Position numbers and translations under genes: made by a program. Shown in pieces: positions 7,812-58,451 of a DNA stretch of 64,000 nt. The stretch's first letter is position 1; each line of letters starts with the position of its first letter. This DNA comes from Euryarchaeota archaeon UBA462 (GTDB lineage Archaea; Thermoplasmatota; Poseidoniia; Poseidoniales; Thalassarchaeaceae), in NCBI GenBank assembly GCA_002506755.1, contig DAYD01000018.1, positions 37,118 to 101,117 on the forward strand. The letters are read 5' to 3'. The notes beneath the pieces were generated by a model, which was given only the letters and a program-made list of their open reading frames with translations, searched no databases and had not been told where the DNA came from.

Positions 7812-8933
7812 TTGAAAAGTCGATATGTTGGACCTCTTTCGAGTATCATGATCAAACCTAGTCTGGAGGGTTGCGCATCTCTAACTAGGGACATCGGGAG
7901 TAGTTGCACTTTGCTTAATTTACGTGATGGTTATCTTATCGCTGGTACAAAAAGTGGCAAAATTTCCTGTTGGAGGATATCAGATGGTTCCAATATATGG
8001 GAGAGAGATTTCGACGGCCCGTGCAATGACAGCGATATATTCGGAGCTTGTATTTACATTACCGAATCAAACAAGGTACACTCAATTGACTTCGCTGATG
8101 GTAGGGTCAATTGGACAGTAGAATTGGAAGGTTCGGTTGATTTGATTAGTGCTGGTGAAGGCCATATATGGGTCACTTCATCTATTTACAATTTTGAAAT
8201 TCAAGATTTTGTCGAGGGAGCAGTTTGCCAAATTGATCTGAACGGAAAAAGAATAGGAACATGGTCTACAGAAGGAAGGGCCTGGTCTCTAACTAACGTG
8301 AAAGGTGTAGCATACCTTGGGCTTAGTAGGCCAAGATGTGGTTTTTGCATCATATCTCACGAACGGATAGAGTACTTTCCATTGGATCATTCCTCCCCAG
8401 TCACAGTTGGAGATGGAAATGAAATAAATGGGGTTATTTTCGGACATAGTGATGGTGGAGCTTCCCAGCTAATTAACGGTGAGGTTTCCACATTTTCTGC
8501 TCGAGGATCGTCTGCGACAGCAATTCATTGCTCAGATGGATGGGTAATTGGGCTTGAAAATGGAGAAATTCGAGGAATGGGTAATTTTGGATCTTGGAAA
8601 TCAAATTTAGAAGGGCGAATAGAAGAGTTTTCGATTGGCCCCTCATTGGACGAAACCAACGTTTTGTGGGCTTCTTCTTGGGAGTATGCTAGCGAAATAA
8701 GCTTGTTCGATATAGCGAGTGGAGAAGTTATTCTGAAAATGGAGCACTCGGACAGAATTTCCCACATGTGTGGATCCCAGAATGTAATTTGCTTTGGCGA
8801 TACTAATGGCAATTTATTTATTTTAGAGGCTGAGGTTTTTCGGCGTCGTTTACAACAATTTCGGCCCACCTTTGTAGAGAGTGGTATGGAGTCGGAAATG
8901 AGGAAGAAAATACGTGAGCTGAGGCGGGATTAG
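7812..8933 (+). CDS. beta-propeller repeat protein (PQQ/WD40-like), function unknown
   Basis: Repeated G-x-I/V-x-x-x-D-x-x-G/N-W blade-like segments. The start is TTG at 7812, and an in-frame ATG at 7848 is an alternative. Confidence 0.5.
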   Translation: MKSRYVGPLSSIMIKPSLEGCASLTRDIGSSCTLLNLRDGYLIAGTKSGKISCWRISDGSNIWERDFDGPCNDSDIFGACIYITESNKVHSIDFADGRVNWTVELEGSVDLISAGEGHIWVTSSIYNFEIQDFVEGAVCQIDLNGKRIGTWSTEGRAWSLTNVKGVAYLGLSRPRCGFCIISHERIEYFPLDHSSPVTVGDGNEINGVIFGHSDGGASQLINGEVSTFSARGSSATAIHCSDGWVIGLENGEIRGMGNFGSWKSNLEGRIEEFSIGPSLDETNVLWASSWEYASEISLFDIASGEVILKMEHSDRISHMCGSQNVICFGDTNGNLFILEAEVFRRRLQQFRPTFVESGMESEMRKKIRELRRD

Positions 8934-8992
8934 TTTGCACTGGAAAAACATGTTTTTACACCCTCATTTCCAGTGTACTGCGCCTAAATTGT

Positions 8993-9005
8993 CGAAATGT
9001 TTATG
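8993..9005 (+). promoter_or_regulatory. BRE/TATA-like element (CGAAA-TGTTTATG) upstream of the candidate RNA
   Basis: A purine-rich CGAAA lies directly 5' of a TTTAT core, about 25-30 nt upstream of the G at 9031 where the GC-rich structured segment begins. Confidence 0.25.
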
Positions 9006-9030
9006 AGCCGGTCATAACCCTGTATTCTTT

Positions 9031-9600
9031 GCCGCTCCGGGGGAGTGGTGTGAGGGCGCTTCGGCGCAACTCGCGGGCCACAAAAACCGAGCCCCGAAAC
9101 CGGGGCGGTAAAATCGAAATCCGAAAGGAAATCGAGGAAAGCTGAAGCGTCATGTGGGCGTGGATGCAACGGCGAAGATTTAGGACAAACCGGACGCAAG
9201 GAAGGTAAGAGCTAGGTTAGAGTTGAAGAGATACACGCGCGTAGGGTGATGAGAATGAACCTGGGTCGCGTAAGTGGGAAACGAAGTGAAAAGAACCCGA
9301 CGCAAGGAAGGTAATGGAAACTAAGGGAAACACTTGGCAACAAGGGCGGGGAGACCCGTGGAGAAGCTAGTATCGAGACGTAGAAGGTTAATCGGAGACG
9401 AAGCACCTAAAACGGATGCGGCAAAAGAGAGAGAGATCCCTCTTTAGTCGGAAAATGACAAAGGAAGAGCGAGAAGTTCCGGAGTCATCTACCCGGGGAA
9501 TCCCGGGCCTTCGGGCCCGGGCGACACCCGGACCCTGCGGAGTTAACAGGGGGGGAAGCTCCCCCATGTGCGGAACCCCCTGTTGCTCCCACCTGGTTAT
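9031..9600 (+). ncRNA. candidate large structured RNA, class unknown
   Basis: ORF-free, purine-rich segment that looks GC-richer than its flanks by eye, lying between two convergent gene ends. It has cUUCGg hairpins at 9056-9067 and 9502-9521, and GNRA hairpins at 9333-9344 (GCAA) and 9347-9358 (GAGA). Further helices are GCCCCG-AAAC-CGGGGC at 9091-9106 and a 9-bp helix at 9545-9553/9576-9584. The ends are approximate. Confidence 0.45.
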
Positions 9601-9642
9601 CAGGCCCTTAGAAATAAAAGCACTAGAGGTAGCTAGATCAAA

Positions 9643-11244
9643 TCATGATTTAGGGCCAATCATGTTCTGAGGTTTTACCCAATTATCAAAATCCTCGTCG
9701 GTTAAAATCTTCAGATCTATAGCGCTCTGCCTTAGAGTGAGACCCTGCTCATGAGCGTGCTTGGCAATCTTCGCAGAATTGTCATATCCGATATGCGGAT
9801 TTAATGCTGTCACAAGCATTAGTGAGTTCTCCAGATGTTCAGAGATCTTTGTCTCATTAGCCACCAGCCCTTCTACACATCTTTCGGAGAAGGAGATGCA
9901 AGCGTCAGAAACTAATCTTATACTGTGAAGTAAGTTGTGAATCATCATTGGCTTGTATACGTTAAGCTCAAAGTTTCCTTGGCTACCACCTATCGAGGTC
10001 GCTAGATGATTCCCCATAACCTGACAACAAACCATAGTCATGGCCTCGGACTGGGTTGGATTTACCTTGCCCGGCATTATACTTGAGCCTGGCTCGTTTG
10101 CGGGCAGTGATAGTTCACCTAATCCGCACCTTGGGCCTGAACCAAGCCACCTGATATCATTGGCTATCTTCATCAACGACGCAGCCAATGTATTCAGTGA
10201 TCCGGATGCAGCTACTATGGCGTCATGAGAGGCTAACTGGGCGAATTTATTTTCAGCGCTGATGAATGGGAGATTGGTCTTTTCTGCGATGCGCTCCGCA
10301 ACAATATCTGCAAAATCTTTACGAGTGTTGAGGCCAGTTCCAACTGCAGTTCCACCCAAGGCTAGCTCGAAAAGATCTGCTTGAGAAGCTTGGATTCTAA
10401 CTAGGTCAGCATCCAGCATAGAGACATAGGCGCCAAATTCCTGTCCCAATGTCAAGGGAACTGCATCCATTAGATGTGTTCTTCCTATTTTGACTATGCC
10501 GGAGAACTCCCCGGCCTTTTCGGCTAGAGCTGCCCGCAGTATTTCTATTGCAGGTATTAGGCTTTGATTTATTTCAACGGCTGCCGCTATGTGCATTGCC
10601 GTAGGAAAGGTGTCATTGCTAGATTGTGCCATGTTAACATGGTCATTGGGATGGATTGGATCCTTGCTTCCTAGTTTTCCTCCTATCAACTCAATTGCAC
10701 GATTGGCAATTACTTCGTTAGCGTTCATATTTGTCTGAGTCCCAGAACCAGTTTGCCATATCCTAAGTGGGAAATGTTCATCCAAAGACCCGGAAATAAC
10801 CTCCTCACATGCTCGATAAATTAGTTGTCCCGTCTCTTCATTAAGGTCTCCAAGCTCTACGTTTGTTTCCGCTGCGGCTTGCTTCAGGATTCCGAAAGCC
10901 CGTATTAATGACCTTGGCATTTTATCTTGGCCGATATCGAAGTTCACCAATGATCTAGCTGTCTGAGCCCCATAATACCTATCTGCGGGTACATCAATCT
11001 CTCCCATGGTATCCTTCTCTAACCTGACCTTTCCACTGGTTATTTTCGGTTTTGTTGGCTCTGATTTTACGGATTCTGTTCGGAAGACCTCCTTCCCGGA
11101 CAGAGAGTTCTCAATCATCTTCGAAATCGTAGCAGATCTTCCACTATCCCTACCTTTGCCTACTCTAGCATCGAGCCTCTTCGCCAAATCCTCGGGTATG
11201 CTTACTGTGATTATCCTCCGATCTCCGGAGCGGTGCTTCGCCAT
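9643..11244 (-). CDS. fumC: class II fumarate hydratase with a ~73-aa N-terminal ribbon-helix-helix-like extension
   Basis: [16 protein letters not shown] signature. The canonical FumC N-terminus ([23 protein letters not shown]) begins at aa 73. It is preceded in frame by [20 protein letters not shown]...[13 protein letters not shown]. Confidence 0.85.
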
Positions 11245-46938: not shown

Positions 46939-47012
46939 TGGAGCACGAGCCGGGATTTGCACCCGGGTCCATGGATCTGCAGTCCATTGCATAGCTGCTC
47001 TGCCACTCGTGC
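46939..47012 (-). tRNA. tRNA-Cys (anticodon GCA), CCA encoded, atypical D/T loops
   Basis: Minus-strand cloverleaf: acceptor GCACGAG/CTCGTGC, anticodon arm ATGGA-CTGCAGA-TCCAT, T arm CCGGG-TGCAAAT-CCCGG, discriminator U, then CCA. Confidence 0.75.
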
Positions 47013-58206: not shown

Positions 58207-58237
58207 TACTAATTTGTAATCTTTCTCCTATGTCTAC

Positions 58238-58447
58238 ATGTCAGACCGCCTACTCCCTTCAGATGATCCTGTAGCTGAAGAGGTCCTTGAGTGGACAATA
58301 AAGAGGAATTCGCAGGATATATCCCAGCTCATGGACTGGTTGGAAGCAACGGATTCTAGGAAGGACAGAGAGTTGCTAATAGGAAGGGCGATGGATCTAA
58401 TGGAAGAGATTCGGCATGCCCTACGGCGGTTGGATGATTTGAGGTGA
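58238..58447 (+). CDS. small hypothetical protein (69 aa)
   Basis: The ORF fills the gap upstream of mobA and has a helical, charged composition. There is no family support. Confidence 0.3.
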   Translation: MSDRLLPSDDPVAEEVLEWTIKRNSQDISQLMDWLEATDSRKDRELLIGRAMDLMEEIRHALRRLDDLR

Positions 58448-58451
58448 AGGC

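What the first reader, a model, noticed from the sequence alone, without database searches (positions are those of the whole stretch)
8934..9642. 709-nt ORF-free gap between two convergent genes, full of cUUCGg and GNRA hairpins: candidate large structured RNA of unknown class
The flanking genes end facing each other (stops at 8933 on + and 9643 on -), so this region is neither a promoter nor a 5' UTR for either gene. Most other intergenic gaps in the window are under 150 nt. Only short ORFs occur here, and they translate to low-complexity Pro/Arg/Ser strings. The + strand is purine-rich, looks GC-richer than its flanks by eye, and carries textbook RNA building blocks. These include C-UUCG-G hairpins at 9056-9067 (extended by 9050-9054/9070-9074) and 9502-9521 (8 consecutive GC pairs). 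Two adjacent GNRA hairpins follow: CUUG-GCAA-CAAG at 9333-9344 and CGGG-GAGA-CCCG at 9347-9358. There is also GCCCCG-AAAC-CGGGGC at 9091-9106 and a 9-bp helix at 9545-9553/9576-9584. A possible end-closing helix pairs 9039-9045 with 9559-9565 and 9032-9035 with 9570-9573. The tetraloops are canonical only when read on the + strand (the complement gives CGAA/UUGC/UCUC), which fixes the orientation. A BRE/TATA-like CGAAA-TGTTTATG at 8993-9005 sits about 25-30 nt upstream of 9031. At roughly 550 nt this is longer than archaeal SRP or RNase P RNAs as I recall them, and I could not fit either class (see the rejected items).
Basis: seen in the sequence. Interest (0 to 1): 0.7.

Follow-up and report, generated by a model that had tools for sequence, protein, structure and literature searches.

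The report
New large structured RNA of marine archaea
The gap holds a separately transcribed, highly conserved, non-coding RNA gene of about 575 bases, found at this spot in every relative sampled of the abundant ocean archaea Poseidoniales (Marine Group II); it matches no described RNA family and its function is unknown.

Summary
Window 9031 to about 9607 (+ strand) is an RNA gene with its own conserved BRE/TATA promoter.

- **Family:** I recovered 78 distinct full-length copies from marine metagenomes. Each lies directly downstream of the same Poseidoniales-specific PQQ-like beta-propeller gene.
- **Conservation:** Short-form copies are 82-100% identical, while that neighbouring protein is only 31-47% identical.
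- **Structure:** On 45 sequences, 99.3% of cells in 129 predicted pairs are paired. 31 pairs show compensatory double changes, against 14±2 in shuffles and 2-7 in slid controls. Conserved G·U pairs fix the + strand.
- **Not coding:** Variation has no 3-base periodicity and indels are 1-2 nt.
- **Not a known RNA:** No Rfam 15 family matches. A published study found separate RNase P and SRP RNAs in MG-II/III contigs.
- **Architecture:** The 5' (~130 nt) and 3' (~120 nt) domains are near-invariant. Between them sit purine-rich arms tipped by AAC-Y-GGA-S-GNAA-S'-GAAGGGG. The window has 2 arms; relatives have up to 7, giving RNAs of 565 to about 1000 nt.

Function is inferred only. My best guess is an RNP scaffold with multivalent arms. 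The RNA may overlap the unpublished-sequence "Tan1".

The parts
8938..8975 (+). Conserved inverted repeat (CACTGGAAA ... TTTCCAGTG, about 20-nt spacer). It lies between the stop codon of the PQQ-propeller gene and the RNA promoter. It could be a terminator or 3'-UTR hairpin of the upstream gene, or an operator for the RNA promoter.
   Evidence: The arms are conserved in all size classes. One position switches T-A to C-G (L172) or to T.G (L150), and other positions mismatch. Its role was not tested.
8993..9007 (+). Archaeal BRE/TATA promoter (CGAAA-TGTTTATGAG) of the RNA gene.
   Evidence: It is conserved in every copy as (C/G)GAAA(T/G)GTTTA(T/A)G. The distance from the first T of TTTA to the first G of the RNA is 31 nt both in the window and in the most divergent (~650 nt) class. 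The promoter assignment rests on the known archaeal promoter consensus, not on an experiment.
9031..9607 (+). The predicted RNA transcript. It has a 5' domain, purine-rich arms, a central domain, a 3' domain and a short tail.
   Evidence: The 5' end is inferred from the TATA spacing and from the start of helix 1. Conservation runs to CUCCCACCU (9594), followed by a conserved RGCCC (9603-9607) and, in most relatives, a T-rich tract. The ends have not been mapped experimentally.
9031..9049 (+). Helix 1: GCCGCUCC / GGAGUGGU with a 3-nt loop.
   Evidence: All 8 pairs are always paired in 61 distinct 5' domains. The apical pair switches C-G (51) to U-A (10), and the loop varies among GGG, GUG, UUU, UGU and UCU.
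9050..9074 (+). Helix 2: a bipartite hairpin capped by UUCG (9060-9063).
   Evidence: It is invariant in the short forms. In the other classes both stems change with pairing kept (GUGAG/CUCGC to GUGGG/CCCGC or GUGGC/GCCGC; GCGC/GCGC to GUGC/GCAC or GCAC/GUGC). The loop is UUCG, UCCG or UUAG.
9077..9109 (+). Hairpin domain: GCC/GGU closes an A-rich bulge, followed by GCCCC-GAAACC-GGGGC.
   Evidence: The inner helix has compensatory changes at two pairs (C-G to U-A in 17-21 sequences; G-C to A-U in 14). The outer pair 9077:9109 is G.U (48), G-C (11) or A-U (2) and is never unpaired.
9114..9167 (+). Two small hairpins: a GAAA-capped hairpin at 9114-9135 and a second at 9141-9167.
   Evidence: Compensatory changes are seen in both: UCGA/UCGA to CCGU/ACGG, UCC/GGA to UUC/GAA or UCU/AGA, and helix 7/8 pairs.
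9170..9225 (+). Purine-rich arm 1. Short Watson-Crick steps (9170-9173/9222-9225, 9181-9183/9212-9214, 9190-9191/9204-9205) are separated by symmetric all-purine internal loops. The arm is tipped by the module AACCGGA-C-GCAA-G-GAAGG (9188-9208; tetraloop 9196-9199).
   Evidence: The loop-closing pair 9195:9200 is G-C in 31 and C-G in 14 of 45 sequences. The loop is GCAA, GAAA or GUAA.
9230..9374 (+). Central domain closed by GAUAC/GUAUC. It holds hairpin 9236-9270; purine-rich arm 2 (9273-9334), whose module at 9294-9314 has its tetraloop at 9302-9305; and the GAGA hairpin 9346-9359 inside the 9336-9338/9366-9368 helix.
   Evidence: In helix 14, three pairs each show 11-21 double changes. The arm 2 closing pair is G-C in 24 and C-G in 21. 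The GAGA hairpin has three covarying pairs.
9379..9486 (+). Three consecutive hairpins: 9379-9414, 9419-9450 and 9457-9486.
   Evidence: Compensatory changes occur in helices 21, 22, 24 and 26. In other size classes the last hairpin is replaced by different sequences that still form a hairpin capped by a CUCG, UUCG or UUAG loop.
9496..9529 (+). 3' domain hairpin: GGG/CCC, then CCCGGGCC-UUCG-GGCCCGGG.
   Evidence: Pair 9504:9519 is C-G in 24 and U-A in 21. Across the classes the stem sequence changes (CUGCC/GGCAG, GGGC/GCCC, CCGGCC/GGCCGG). The loop swaps among UUCG, UUAG, GAAA, GAGA and GCAA.
9536..9591 (+). Terminal 3' hairpin: a 14-16 bp stem with one bulged U. It encloses a small helix (9557-9559/9570-9572) that presents the invariant C-rich loop CUCCCCCAUGUG.
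   Evidence: The stem is invariant in short forms. In other classes A-U becomes G-C (AACAG/CUGUU to AGCAG or UGCAG/CUGCU). In the inner helix, G-C becomes A-U, and the adjacent A.G becomes A-U or U-A.
9592..9607 (+). 3' tail ending in the conserved element (U)C(A/G)GCCC.
   Evidence: RGCCC is present in all classes, 7-24 nt after CUCCCACCU. Longer forms insert a GUAC-N4-6-GUAC hairpin before it. A T-rich run follows in most relatives but is weak in the window. Whether the mature 3' end lies here is unknown.

Best explanation
**Shown.** Window 9031 to about 9607 (+) is a single-copy gene for a large structured non-coding RNA. It has its own promoter and is specific to Poseidoniales (Marine Group II archaea). 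In every locus sampled it sits directly downstream of, and co-oriented with, a lineage-specific PQQ-like beta-propeller gene. The RNA has a near-invariant 5' domain (~130 nt) and 3' domain (~120 nt). Between them are rod-like arms that are purine-rich on both strands. Each arm is tipped by the module AAC-Y-GGA-S-GNAA-S'-GAAGGGG. Arm number ranges from 2 (this window) to 6-7 and has grown by tandem duplication.

**Inferred** (my estimate about 0.3-0.35, the highest among the mechanisms I considered). The RNA is the scaffold of a ribonucleoprotein. The invariant terminal domains would engage a conserved cellular partner. The repeated arm tips would be multivalent binding sites for one protein (or one RNA surface), so that copy number sets valency. 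This is the logic of Csr/Rsm sponge RNAs, or of a conserved core with flexible arms as in telomerase RNA. The adjacent propeller protein, with its conserved Arg-rich C-terminal tail, is the first candidate partner. That link rests on gene adjacency only.

The confidence figure below is for the 'shown' part.
For: **Family and conservation**
- 78 distinct full-length copies were recovered. Two further short-form copies were found, one on a 1.57-Mb contig.
- Short forms are 82-100% identical. The flanking propeller protein is 31-47% identical and fumarase 74-83%.

**Structure and strand**
- 129 pairs on 45 sequences give 99.3% paired cells.
- 31 pairs show double changes, against 14.2±2.0 in shuffles (0 of 500 reach the observed value) and 2-7 in slid controls.
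- More compensatory changes appear in helices 1, 2 and 4, and in the 3' hairpins, once the longer classes are added.
- At least 9 conserved G.U pairs would be C.A on the other strand.

**Promoter**
- BRE/TATA is conserved with a fixed 31-nt spacing to helix 1.

**Not coding**
- Per-position entropy by frame is 0.23/0.29/0.28.
- Indels are 1-2 nt.
- The longest stop-free run on the - strand varies from 69 to 191 aa among close relatives.
- The called ORFs have no Pfam match.

**Module**
- 181 modules in 75 RNAs share the consensus AAC.GGA.G.AA.GAA.GGG. The closing pair is C-G or G-C and the loops are GCAA, GAAA or GUAA.
- A 69-nt unit is duplicated in tandem at 100% identity in L094.
- Size classes are 565-574, ~650, 679-700, ~746, 768-807, 834-855 and ~1003 nt.

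**Linkage**
- The propeller gene is immediately upstream on the same strand in every locus with enough upstream DNA. This includes the loci found by RNA pattern alone. The downstream gene differs: fumarase or PTH2.
- The propeller family was found only in Poseidoniales-type sequences.
- It has the conserved C-terminal motif VLRRRF...LRxKIRxLR.
Against: - No transcript data were available to me, so expression, RNA ends and abundance are inferred.
- The scaffold or sponge mechanism has no direct support. No partner protein is identified. The propeller is acidic overall (pI 4.5-5.0), and its only solved relatives by sequence are BamB-type propellers and designed repeat proteins, not RNA binders.
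- Gene order is broadly conserved across these genomes (the M32 peptidase, propeller, RNA, fumarase order recurs), so adjacency may be mere synteny.
- The window's own two modules deviate from the consensus (GGUAA instead of GGGGA in both; CGA instead of GGA in the second). A strictly sequence-specific binding site would not be expected to tolerate this.
- One relative (L127) lacks helix 1 altogether.
- No long-range helix closing the RNA could be established. The candidates are invariant, and one of them (9075-9079/9530-9535) is contradicted by a G-to-A change that fits a local pairing instead.
Confidence: 0.85

Rival explanations
1. The RNA is a self-assembling, RNA-only particle. Its GNRA-tipped arms and GC-rich hairpins would dock onto other copies to build a homo-oligomer, as recently shown for the bacterial large RNAs ROOL, GOLLD and OLE.
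For: - The RNA is large and ornate, with many GNRA and UNCG caps. GNRA loops are classic tertiary-contact elements (established knowledge).
- The arm tips are conserved in sequence although their closing pair flips.
- Cryo-EM of ROOL, GOLLD and OLE showed homo-oligomers (PMC12286853, abstract seen).
Against: - A defined cage would be expected to need a fixed geometry. Here arm number varies from 2 to 7 between related lineages and changes by recent tandem duplication.
- There is no Rfam similarity to those RNAs.
- No conserved tetraloop-receptor motif was identified.
Confidence: 0.2
2. The RNA is a catalytic RNA, or the RNA subunit of a catalytic RNP. The invariant 5' and 3' domains would form the active core, and the arms would be peripheral expansion segments.
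For: - The terminal domains appear nearly invariant across the family, including unpaired invariant stretches such as GAGUCNUCUACCCGGGG and the CUCCCCCAUGUG loop.
- The pattern of a conserved core with variable periphery matches RNase P RNA and rRNA (established knowledge).
Against: - There is no similarity to any ribozyme family in Rfam.
- No substrate is suggested by the context.
- The arm tips are themselves conserved, which is unlike neutral expansion segments.
Confidence: 0.12
3. The transcript has already been seen. It would be, in whole or part, the 229-nt 'Tan1' ncRNA of Ca. Thalassoarchaea, or one of the very abundant 'intrinsically disordered protein mRNAs' reported from the Red Sea metatranscriptome. 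The second case would arise if ORFs wrongly called on this RNA were taken for genes.
For: - PMC5069720 reports Tan1, an unknown, abundant, structured MGII ncRNA. [quoted passage not shown]
- The reference contigs of that study were GenBank KF900301-KF901297. A UniRef protein is named for 'uncultured marine group II/III euryarchaeote KM3_62_D04', and from my own knowledge I take the KM3 fosmids to be that accession set.
- That protein, P0185, starts MGELPPLHTPQGPG. By my own reading, not a tool alignment, this is the - strand translation of the invariant 3' hairpin of a long form.
- It is Pro/Ser/Leu-rich and would likely score as disordered.
- At least 91 clusters of such ORFs are in the protein database.
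Against: - Tan1 is 229 nt and its homologs are only 75-79% identical. This RNA is 565 nt or longer and at least 82% identical among short forms.
- One of the two IDP clusters has a signal peptide and looks like a real protein.
- The Tan1 sequence and Table S5 were not available to me, so nothing could be compared.
Confidence: 0.3
4. The RNA is a very divergent archaeal RNase P RNA or SRP RNA.
For: - The window contains GAGGAAAG (9134-9141) and GGUAAGAGC (9204-9212), which resemble the CR-I and CR-II motifs of RNase P as I recall them.
- The ends are conserved and the middle is variable.
Against: - There is no hit to RF00373, RF02357, RF01857 or any RNase P or SRP model even at E<=10 with lax filters.
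- The CR-I-like string is not conserved. Relatives read GGAGAAA or GGGGAAA followed by variable bases.
- The would-be P4 partner pairs locally, not at long range.
- In MG-II/III euryarchaeal contigs, separate 292-306-nt RNAs matching RF00373 and 305-315-nt RNAs matching RF01857 were already found (PMC5069720).
Confidence: 0.02
5. The region is not an RNA gene. It would be a decayed or low-complexity protein gene on the - strand, or merely a long structured 3' UTR or terminator region of the two convergent genes.
For: - Gene callers place 184-289-aa ORFs on the - strand in many relatives, and some + strand ORFs in others.
- The RNA is co-oriented with the upstream gene, about 100 nt after its stop.
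Against: - The ORFs are broken in the window (71 aa or less on the - strand) and vary from 69 to 191 aa among close relatives.
- Variation shows no codon periodicity, and indels are 1-2 nt.
- The ORFs have no Pfam domain.
- Pairing-preserving double substitutions and conserved G.U pairs are not expected of coding sequence.
- A conserved BRE/TATA sits at the right distance from helix 1.
- The RNA stays with the propeller gene when the downstream gene changes.
Confidence: 0.03

Closest known systems
OLE, GOLLD and ROOL (large 'ornate' bacterial ncRNAs of unknown or newly emerging function)
   Same: All are stand-alone genes of about 600 nt or more. All have many covarying helices, highly conserved unpaired stretches and a lineage-restricted distribution. 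All were found by comparative sequence analysis rather than genetics.
   Different: There is no sequence or structure similarity to any of them (no Rfam hit). This RNA is archaeal and strongly purine-rich (63-69%). It carries a repeated arm module whose copy number varies 2-7 within the family, which I do not recall being described for those RNAs.
CsrB/RsmZ-type protein-sponge RNAs
   Same: Both carry a short conserved motif presented repeatedly on hairpins, with a copy number that differs between related organisms. This is the basis of my functional guess.
   Different: Csr/Rsm RNAs present GGA in hairpin loops and bind CsrA, a bacterial protein family. Here the loops are GNAA and the conserved purines flank the loop. 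About 250 nt of invariant non-repeat core is present, which sponge RNAs lack. No partner is known.
Archaeal RNase P RNA (RF00373) and SRP RNA (RF01857)
   Same: All are housekeeping-type RNAs with their own promoter. All have a very strongly conserved core with more variable peripheral elements, and stable tetraloop caps.
   Different: The covariance-model test failed. The defining motifs are absent or not conserved. MG-II/III contigs already carry both RNAs elsewhere (PMC5069720). This RNA is about twice their length.
Tan1 (Thalassoarchaea ncRNA 1; Hou et al. 2016, PMC5069720)
   Same: Both are unknown, apparently structured ncRNAs from the same group of organisms (MGIIb).
   Different: Tan1 is reported as 229 nt with homologs 75-79% identical.
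Sarcin-ricin loop / bulged-G motif of 23S rRNA
   Same: The arm tip GGA-C-GNAA-G-GAA has the same layout as AGUA-C-GAGA-G-GAA(C). That layout is a GNRA loop on a single C-G pair, stacked on purine-purine pairs. This is a comparison from memory, not a test.
   Different: The 5' side is GGA, not AGUA, so there is no bulged-G/U.A element. The loop is GCAA, GAAA or GUAA and never GAGA.

Membership tests
Archaeal RNase P RNA (Rfam RF00373 / RF02357) | Match to the family covariance model | tested here: not met
   There is no hit at gathering score in the 64-kb window. There is none at E<=10 on 8800-9800 with lax filters, and none at E<=1 in five loci carrying longer forms.
Archaeal RNase P RNA (Rfam RF00373 / RF02357) | Conserved regions CR-I and CR-V forming the long-range P4 helix | tested here: not met
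   The CR-I-like GAGGAAAG at 9134-9141 is not conserved in relatives. The CR-V-like GGAACCCCCUGUU pairs with the adjacent AACAGGGGG in a local hairpin.
Archaeal RNase P RNA (Rfam RF00373 / RF02357) | It is the organism's RNase P RNA, with no other copy in the genome | not testable with these tools
   Whole Poseidoniales genomes were not available to scan. The literature reports separate 292-306-nt RF00373 matches on MG-II/III euryarchaeal contigs (PMC5069720).
Archaeal SRP RNA (Rfam RF01857) | Match to the family covariance model (helix 8 and Alu-domain motifs) | tested here: not met
   There is no hit. Separate 305-315-nt RF01857 matches are reported for MG-II/III contigs (PMC5069720).
Known large bacterial ncRNAs (OLE, GOLLD, ROOL, HEARO, raiA) and group I/II introns | Match to any of their Rfam covariance models | tested here: not met
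   All 4227 Rfam 15 families were searched. Only chance-level hits to unrelated families appeared.
Csr/Rsm-type sponge RNA | Repeated hairpins presenting one conserved motif, with variable copy number | tested here: met
   There are 181 modules in 75 RNAs, 1-7 per RNA by strict pattern, with a recent tandem duplication. This supports 'works like', not membership.
Csr/Rsm-type sponge RNA | GGA motif in the hairpin loop, and a CsrA/RsmA partner encoded by the organism | tested here: not met
   The loops are GNAA, and the GGA lies in the stem flank. CsrA is a bacterial family (established knowledge); its absence from these genomes was not checked.
Kink-turn / K-loop (L7Ae-binding) element | A 3-nt bulge followed by tandem sheared G.A/A.G pairs | tested here: not met
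   The arm tip can form G.A, G.A and A.G opposite each other (5'-GGA/5'-GAA), but the loop is symmetric 3x3 with no 3-nt bulge. This is from sequence inspection of the consensus; no structural test was possible.
Tan1 ncRNA (PMC5069720) | Sequence identity or overlap with the published 229-nt Tan1 | not testable with these tools
   The sequence and coordinates are only in a figure and in Table S5, which is truncated in the held copy.
Structured non-coding RNA gene (generic) | Significant compensatory covariation, strand-specific G.U pairs, own promoter, no coding signal | tested here: met
   See (covariation; promoter; no periodicity). Transcription itself was not tested.

The most novel reading that the evidence does not exclude
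This would be the first large 'ornate' non-coding RNA class specific to archaea. It would be a 565 to about 1000-nt RNA universal to Poseidoniales, with very strongly conserved terminal domains and an expandable set of purine-purine-paired, GNRA-tipped arms. It would form a cellular machine (RNP or RNA-only) of a kind not yet described, and it may be among the most abundant non-ribosomal transcripts of these uncultured ocean archaea.
Probability: 0.5. Interest if true: 0.88.

Novelty: categorically new. Interest (0 to 1): 0.8.

Why it matters
- Marine Group II archaea are among the most abundant planktonic archaea in surface oceans and have never been cultured. Almost everything known about them comes from protein-gene annotation.
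- A single-copy RNA whose terminal domains are nearly invariant across the family, present at the same locus in every relative sampled, implies an important piece of their cell biology that annotation has missed.
- Large structured RNAs of unknown function are rare, and as far as I know none specific to archaea has been described. Such RNAs have repeatedly led to new biochemistry, such as ribozymes, RNP machines and RNA cages.
- The arm design is structurally unusual: long symmetric purine-purine 'internal loops' with a conserved GNRA tip, multiplied by tandem duplication.
- There is a practical point as well. At least 91 clusters of 'hypothetical proteins' in public databases are false translations of this RNA. 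These can distort metatranscriptome and metaproteome interpretation.

Tried and rejected
1. **Fumarase-based genome scan.** The fumarase is too conserved. 77 of 80 loci were bacterial, only three were Poseidoniales, and only one of those (L001) carried the RNA, cut by the contig end.
2. **Viral contigs.** The pattern scan gave 0 matches.
3. **RNase P idea.** It came from the GAGGAAAG and GGUAAGAGC strings. I dropped it when relatives showed these are not conserved and the literature showed a separate RNase P RNA.
4. **Naive all-against-all covariation scan.** It gave hundreds of false pairs, from G/A and C/U transitions tolerated through G.U. I did not use it.
5. **RNAalifold with RIBOSUM scoring.** It gave an implausible end structure, so I used the default energy model instead.
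6. **Long-range closing helices.** GGGCC 9075-9079 with GGACCC 9530-9535, and GGUAGA with UCUACC, are invariant and so untestable. The first is disfavoured by L162/L181.
7. **'Shine-Dalgarno sponge' idea.** Genes in the window show only weak G enrichment at -9 to -5 and few GGAGG (4 of 52), so nothing supports it.
8. **Pairing of the C-rich loop CUCCCCC with GGGGAG strings in the arms or helix 1.** No covariation was found, and the window's arms lack GGGG.
9. **Tan1 and Table S5 of PMC5069720.** They are truncated in the held copy.
10. **MGIIa against MGIIb assignment of size classes.** A long-form lineage includes Ca. Thalassarchaeum betae (MGIIb), so the simple split fails.
11. **The other ORF-free gap (58207-58451).** It is just a 69-aa ORF.
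Full report
**Observation.** The gap 8934-9642 lies between two convergent genes. Upstream is a 373-aa PQQ_2/BamB-like beta-propeller (7812-8933, +). Downstream is a class II fumarase (9643-11244, -). Only short ORFs lie between them. The gap is richer in GC than its flanks: 0.515-0.595 against about 0.41-0.45. It is also purine-rich on the + strand: 63% overall and 69% in the middle, against 50% for the window. The + strand folds better than shuffles (z = -3.06, 0 of 100 as good), and the - strand less so (z = -2.12). The only other stretch of 200 nt or more free of ORFs of 100 aa or more in the 64 kb (58207-58451) simply holds a 69-aa ORF.

**Organism and relatives.** The closest genome contigs carrying the fumarase are Candidatus Poseidoniales, that is Marine Group II archaea. 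The propeller protein has homologs only in Poseidoniales-type sequences. Fetching contigs that encode ten diverse propeller homologs showed the same gap of about 710 nt or more after the gene each time. The gap aligns almost base for base although the proteins are only 34-48% identical. A 20-base pattern from an invariant loop found 111 further stretches in metagenome contigs and none in viral contigs. This gave 78 distinct full-length copies in all. Two more short-form copies turned up later, one of them on a 1.57-Mb contig. In every locus with enough flanking DNA the propeller gene is directly upstream on the same strand. This includes the loci found by RNA pattern alone. The downstream gene is fumarase, or PTH2 in one clade.

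**It is not coding.**
- Gene callers often place 184-289-aa ORFs on the pyrimidine-rich - strand. These have no Pfam domain, and 91 such clusters sit in the protein database.
- Among 45 close relatives the longest stop-free run on that strand varies from 69 to 191 aa.
- Indels are 1-2 nt.
- Sequence variation has no three-base periodicity (0.23/0.29/0.28).

**It is a structured RNA on the + strand.** I tested an RNAalifold consensus of 45 short-form sequences pair by pair.
- 99.3% of 5805 cells are paired.
- 31 of 129 pairs show changes on both sides, against 14.2±2.0 in column shuffles (0 of 500 reach the observed value) and 2-7 when partners are slid by 1-3 columns.
- At least nine conserved G.U pairs would be C.A mismatches on the other strand.
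- The terminal helices never vary within the short forms. Adding the longer classes supplies the missing test:
  - Helix 1 switches C-G to U-A.
  - Both stems of helix 2 change with pairing kept.
  - The GC-rich 3' hairpin changes stem sequence, and its cap swaps among UUCG, UUAG, GAAA, GAGA and GCAA.
  - The terminal hairpin switches A-U to G-C.
  - Its inner helix covaries.
- Interchange of stable tetraloop types is what one expects of a purely architectural hairpin.

**Gene boundaries.** A BRE/TATA element (8993-9007) is conserved in all classes. The distance from TTTA to the first G of helix 1 is 31 nt both in the window and in the most divergent class. This places the start at about G9031, given the usual archaeal spacing (the spacing rule is established knowledge). 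Strong conservation runs to CUCCCACCU (9594). A conserved RGCCC follows 7-24 nt later (9603-9607 here). Longer forms insert a GUAC-N-GUAC hairpin in between. Most relatives then have a T-rich run, which is weak in this window. The ends are predictions.

**Architecture.** About 130 nt at the 5' end and 120 nt at the 3' end are near-invariant across the whole family. The middle contains arms in which two- to four-pair Watson-Crick steps alternate with symmetric internal loops made only of purines: 3x3, 6x6, 7x7 and up to 19x19. Each arm ends in a module whose consensus over 181 instances is AAC-Y-GGA-S-GNAA-S'-GAA-G-GGG. The S:S' pair is C-G or G-C, and the loop is GCAA, GAAA or GUAA.
- The window has two arms (modules 9188-9208 and 9294-9314). 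Both are slightly off consensus.
- Other lineages have 3 to 7 modules and RNAs of about 650, 680-700, 746, 770-807, 835-855 and about 1000 nt.
- In L094 a 69-nt unit is duplicated in tandem without a single difference, so arm number is still changing.
- 20 of the 112 copies found are cut by a contig end. The repeats probably break assemblies.

**What it is not.** No Rfam 15 family matches the window at gathering score apart from one tRNA elsewhere. Nothing meaningful appears at E<=10 on the region, or at E<=1 on five loci with longer forms. I considered RNase P because of GAGGAAAG and GGUAAGAGC strings. These are not conserved, and the P4-like sequence pairs locally. Independently, a Red Sea metatranscriptome study found separate RNase P RNAs (292-306 nt, RF00373) and SRP RNAs (305-315 nt, RF01857) on MG-II/III euryarchaeal contigs (PMC5069720). 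Full-text searches found no paper describing this RNA.

**A possible earlier sighting.** The same study reports Tan1, an unknown 229-nt structured ncRNA of Thalassoarchaea. It also reports 13 'intrinsically disordered protein mRNAs' that take 93% of the euryarchaeal RNA-seq reads. Its reference contigs were GenBank KF900301-KF901297, which I take from my own knowledge to be the KM3 fosmids. A database protein named for fosmid KM3_62_D04 begins MGELPPLHTPQGPG. By my reading, not a tool alignment, this is the - strand translation of the invariant 3' hairpin. So the locus was probably in that reference set, carrying a false Pro/Ser-rich ORF. I could not obtain the Tan1 sequence or Table S5, so the link is unverified. 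I put it at about 0.3.

**Mechanism.** The following are shown:
- an independent gene
- a conserved fold and strand
- an invariant core
- a repeated conserved arm tip with variable copy number
- obligatory adjacency to the propeller gene

The function is inferred. The combination of an invariant core and an expandable number of identical, conserved hairpin tips is most simply read as an RNP scaffold with multivalent binding sites (about 0.3-0.35). The neighbouring cytoplasmic propeller has a conserved Arg-rich C-terminal tail, VLRRRF...LRxKIRxLR. It is the obvious first partner to test, but the argument is adjacency only. Its solved relatives by sequence are BamB-type propellers and designed repeat proteins.

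The rivals are an RNA-only oligomeric assembly of the ROOL/GOLLD/OLE kind (about 0.2; the variable arm number argues against a fixed cage) and a catalytic core with peripheral arms (about 0.12). An anti-Shine-Dalgarno decoy idea found no support.

- Right: the gap, the composition, most hairpins, the strand, the promoter, and 'not RNase P or SRP'.
- Not supported: the end-closing helix 9039-9045/9559-9565. Its 5' side varies without any change in CUCCCCC, and it lies in the loop and 3' strand of helix 1.
- Not supported: the CUUG-GCAA-CAAG hairpin, which is specific to this window.
- No alternative long-range closure could be established. The candidates are invariant, and one is disfavoured by a G-to-A change that fits a local GCC/GGU pairing.

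**Limits.**
- I had no transcript data.
- The covariation statistic is the tool's shuffle and slide control, not a phylogeny-aware test.
- The secondary structure of the purine-rich arms is a model.

Noticed in passing
window 8938-8975: There is a conserved inverted repeat (CACTGGAAA ... TTTCCAGTG) with a partly conserved ~20-nt spacer. It lies right after the propeller gene's stop codon and about 20 nt before the RNA's BRE/TATA, and it is present in all size classes. It could be a terminator or 3'-UTR hairpin, or an operator controlling the RNA promoter. Only one position shows a compensatory change.
   Followed up: partly
L081 7180-7734 (-), L085 7120-7722 (-), L094 5177-6046 (-), L106 3661-4254 (+); equivalent to window 9031-9600: Gene callers routinely annotate 160-290-aa 'hypothetical proteins' on this RNA, mostly on the antisense strand. 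They are Pro/Ser/Leu/Phe-rich with no Pfam domain. 91 clusters of them are in the protein database. One (P0185) is a UniRef entry named for fosmid KM3_62_D04; its opening residues MGELPPLHTPQGPG read to me as the antisense translation of the invariant 3' hairpin.
   Followed up: yes
L127 8380-8990: One metagenome copy lacks helix 1 entirely. About 35 nt between the TATA box and helix 2 are missing, so the TATA box sits almost against helix 2. The rest of the RNA is intact. It could be a natural deletion variant, a defective copy or an assembly error.
   Followed up: no
window 7812-8933 (+) and its homologs P0001-P0067: The upstream PQQ-like beta-propeller is a Poseidoniales-restricted family. 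It has no signal peptide visible in its N-terminal sequence and is acidic (pI 4.5-5). It has a conserved Arg/Lys-rich C-terminal tail (VLRRRF...LRxKIRxLR). It is always the RNA's upstream neighbour, although it evolves far faster than the RNA.
   Followed up: partly
L094 5785-5917; L093 5909-6008: A 69-nt arm unit is duplicated in tandem at 100% identity in L094. The otherwise identical L093 has a run of N at this point and one more unit. 20 of 112 copies are cut by contig ends. Arm copy number is probably under-counted in short-read assemblies.
   Followed up: partly
PMC5069720 (Red Sea mdRNA-seq), sections on Euryarchaeota: The study reports that 13 'intrinsically disordered protein' mRNAs take 93% of MGII RNA-seq reads, and it names an unknown 229-nt ncRNA, Tan1. 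Some of these may be this RNA or ORFs falsely called on it.
   Followed up: partly
window 9608-9642 and the equivalent stretch in relatives: Between the RNA's 3' tail and the fumarase stop codon there is a semi-conserved element. It reads ...ACGGAG/GCGGAGC... in relatives, forms a GGAGCG-UUU-CGCUCC hairpin in the longer-form lineages, and reads CUAG-AGGUAG-CUAG in the window. It is possibly a terminator for the convergent fumarase gene.
   Followed up: no
window 58239-58448 (+): The only other sizeable ORF-free gap in the window contains a 69-aa ORF (MSDRLLPSDDPVAEEVLEW...), which an ORF filter set at 100 aa misses.
   Followed up: partly
window 46942-47012 (-): This is the only Rfam match at gathering score in the window: a tRNA (57.2 bits).
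   Followed up: no
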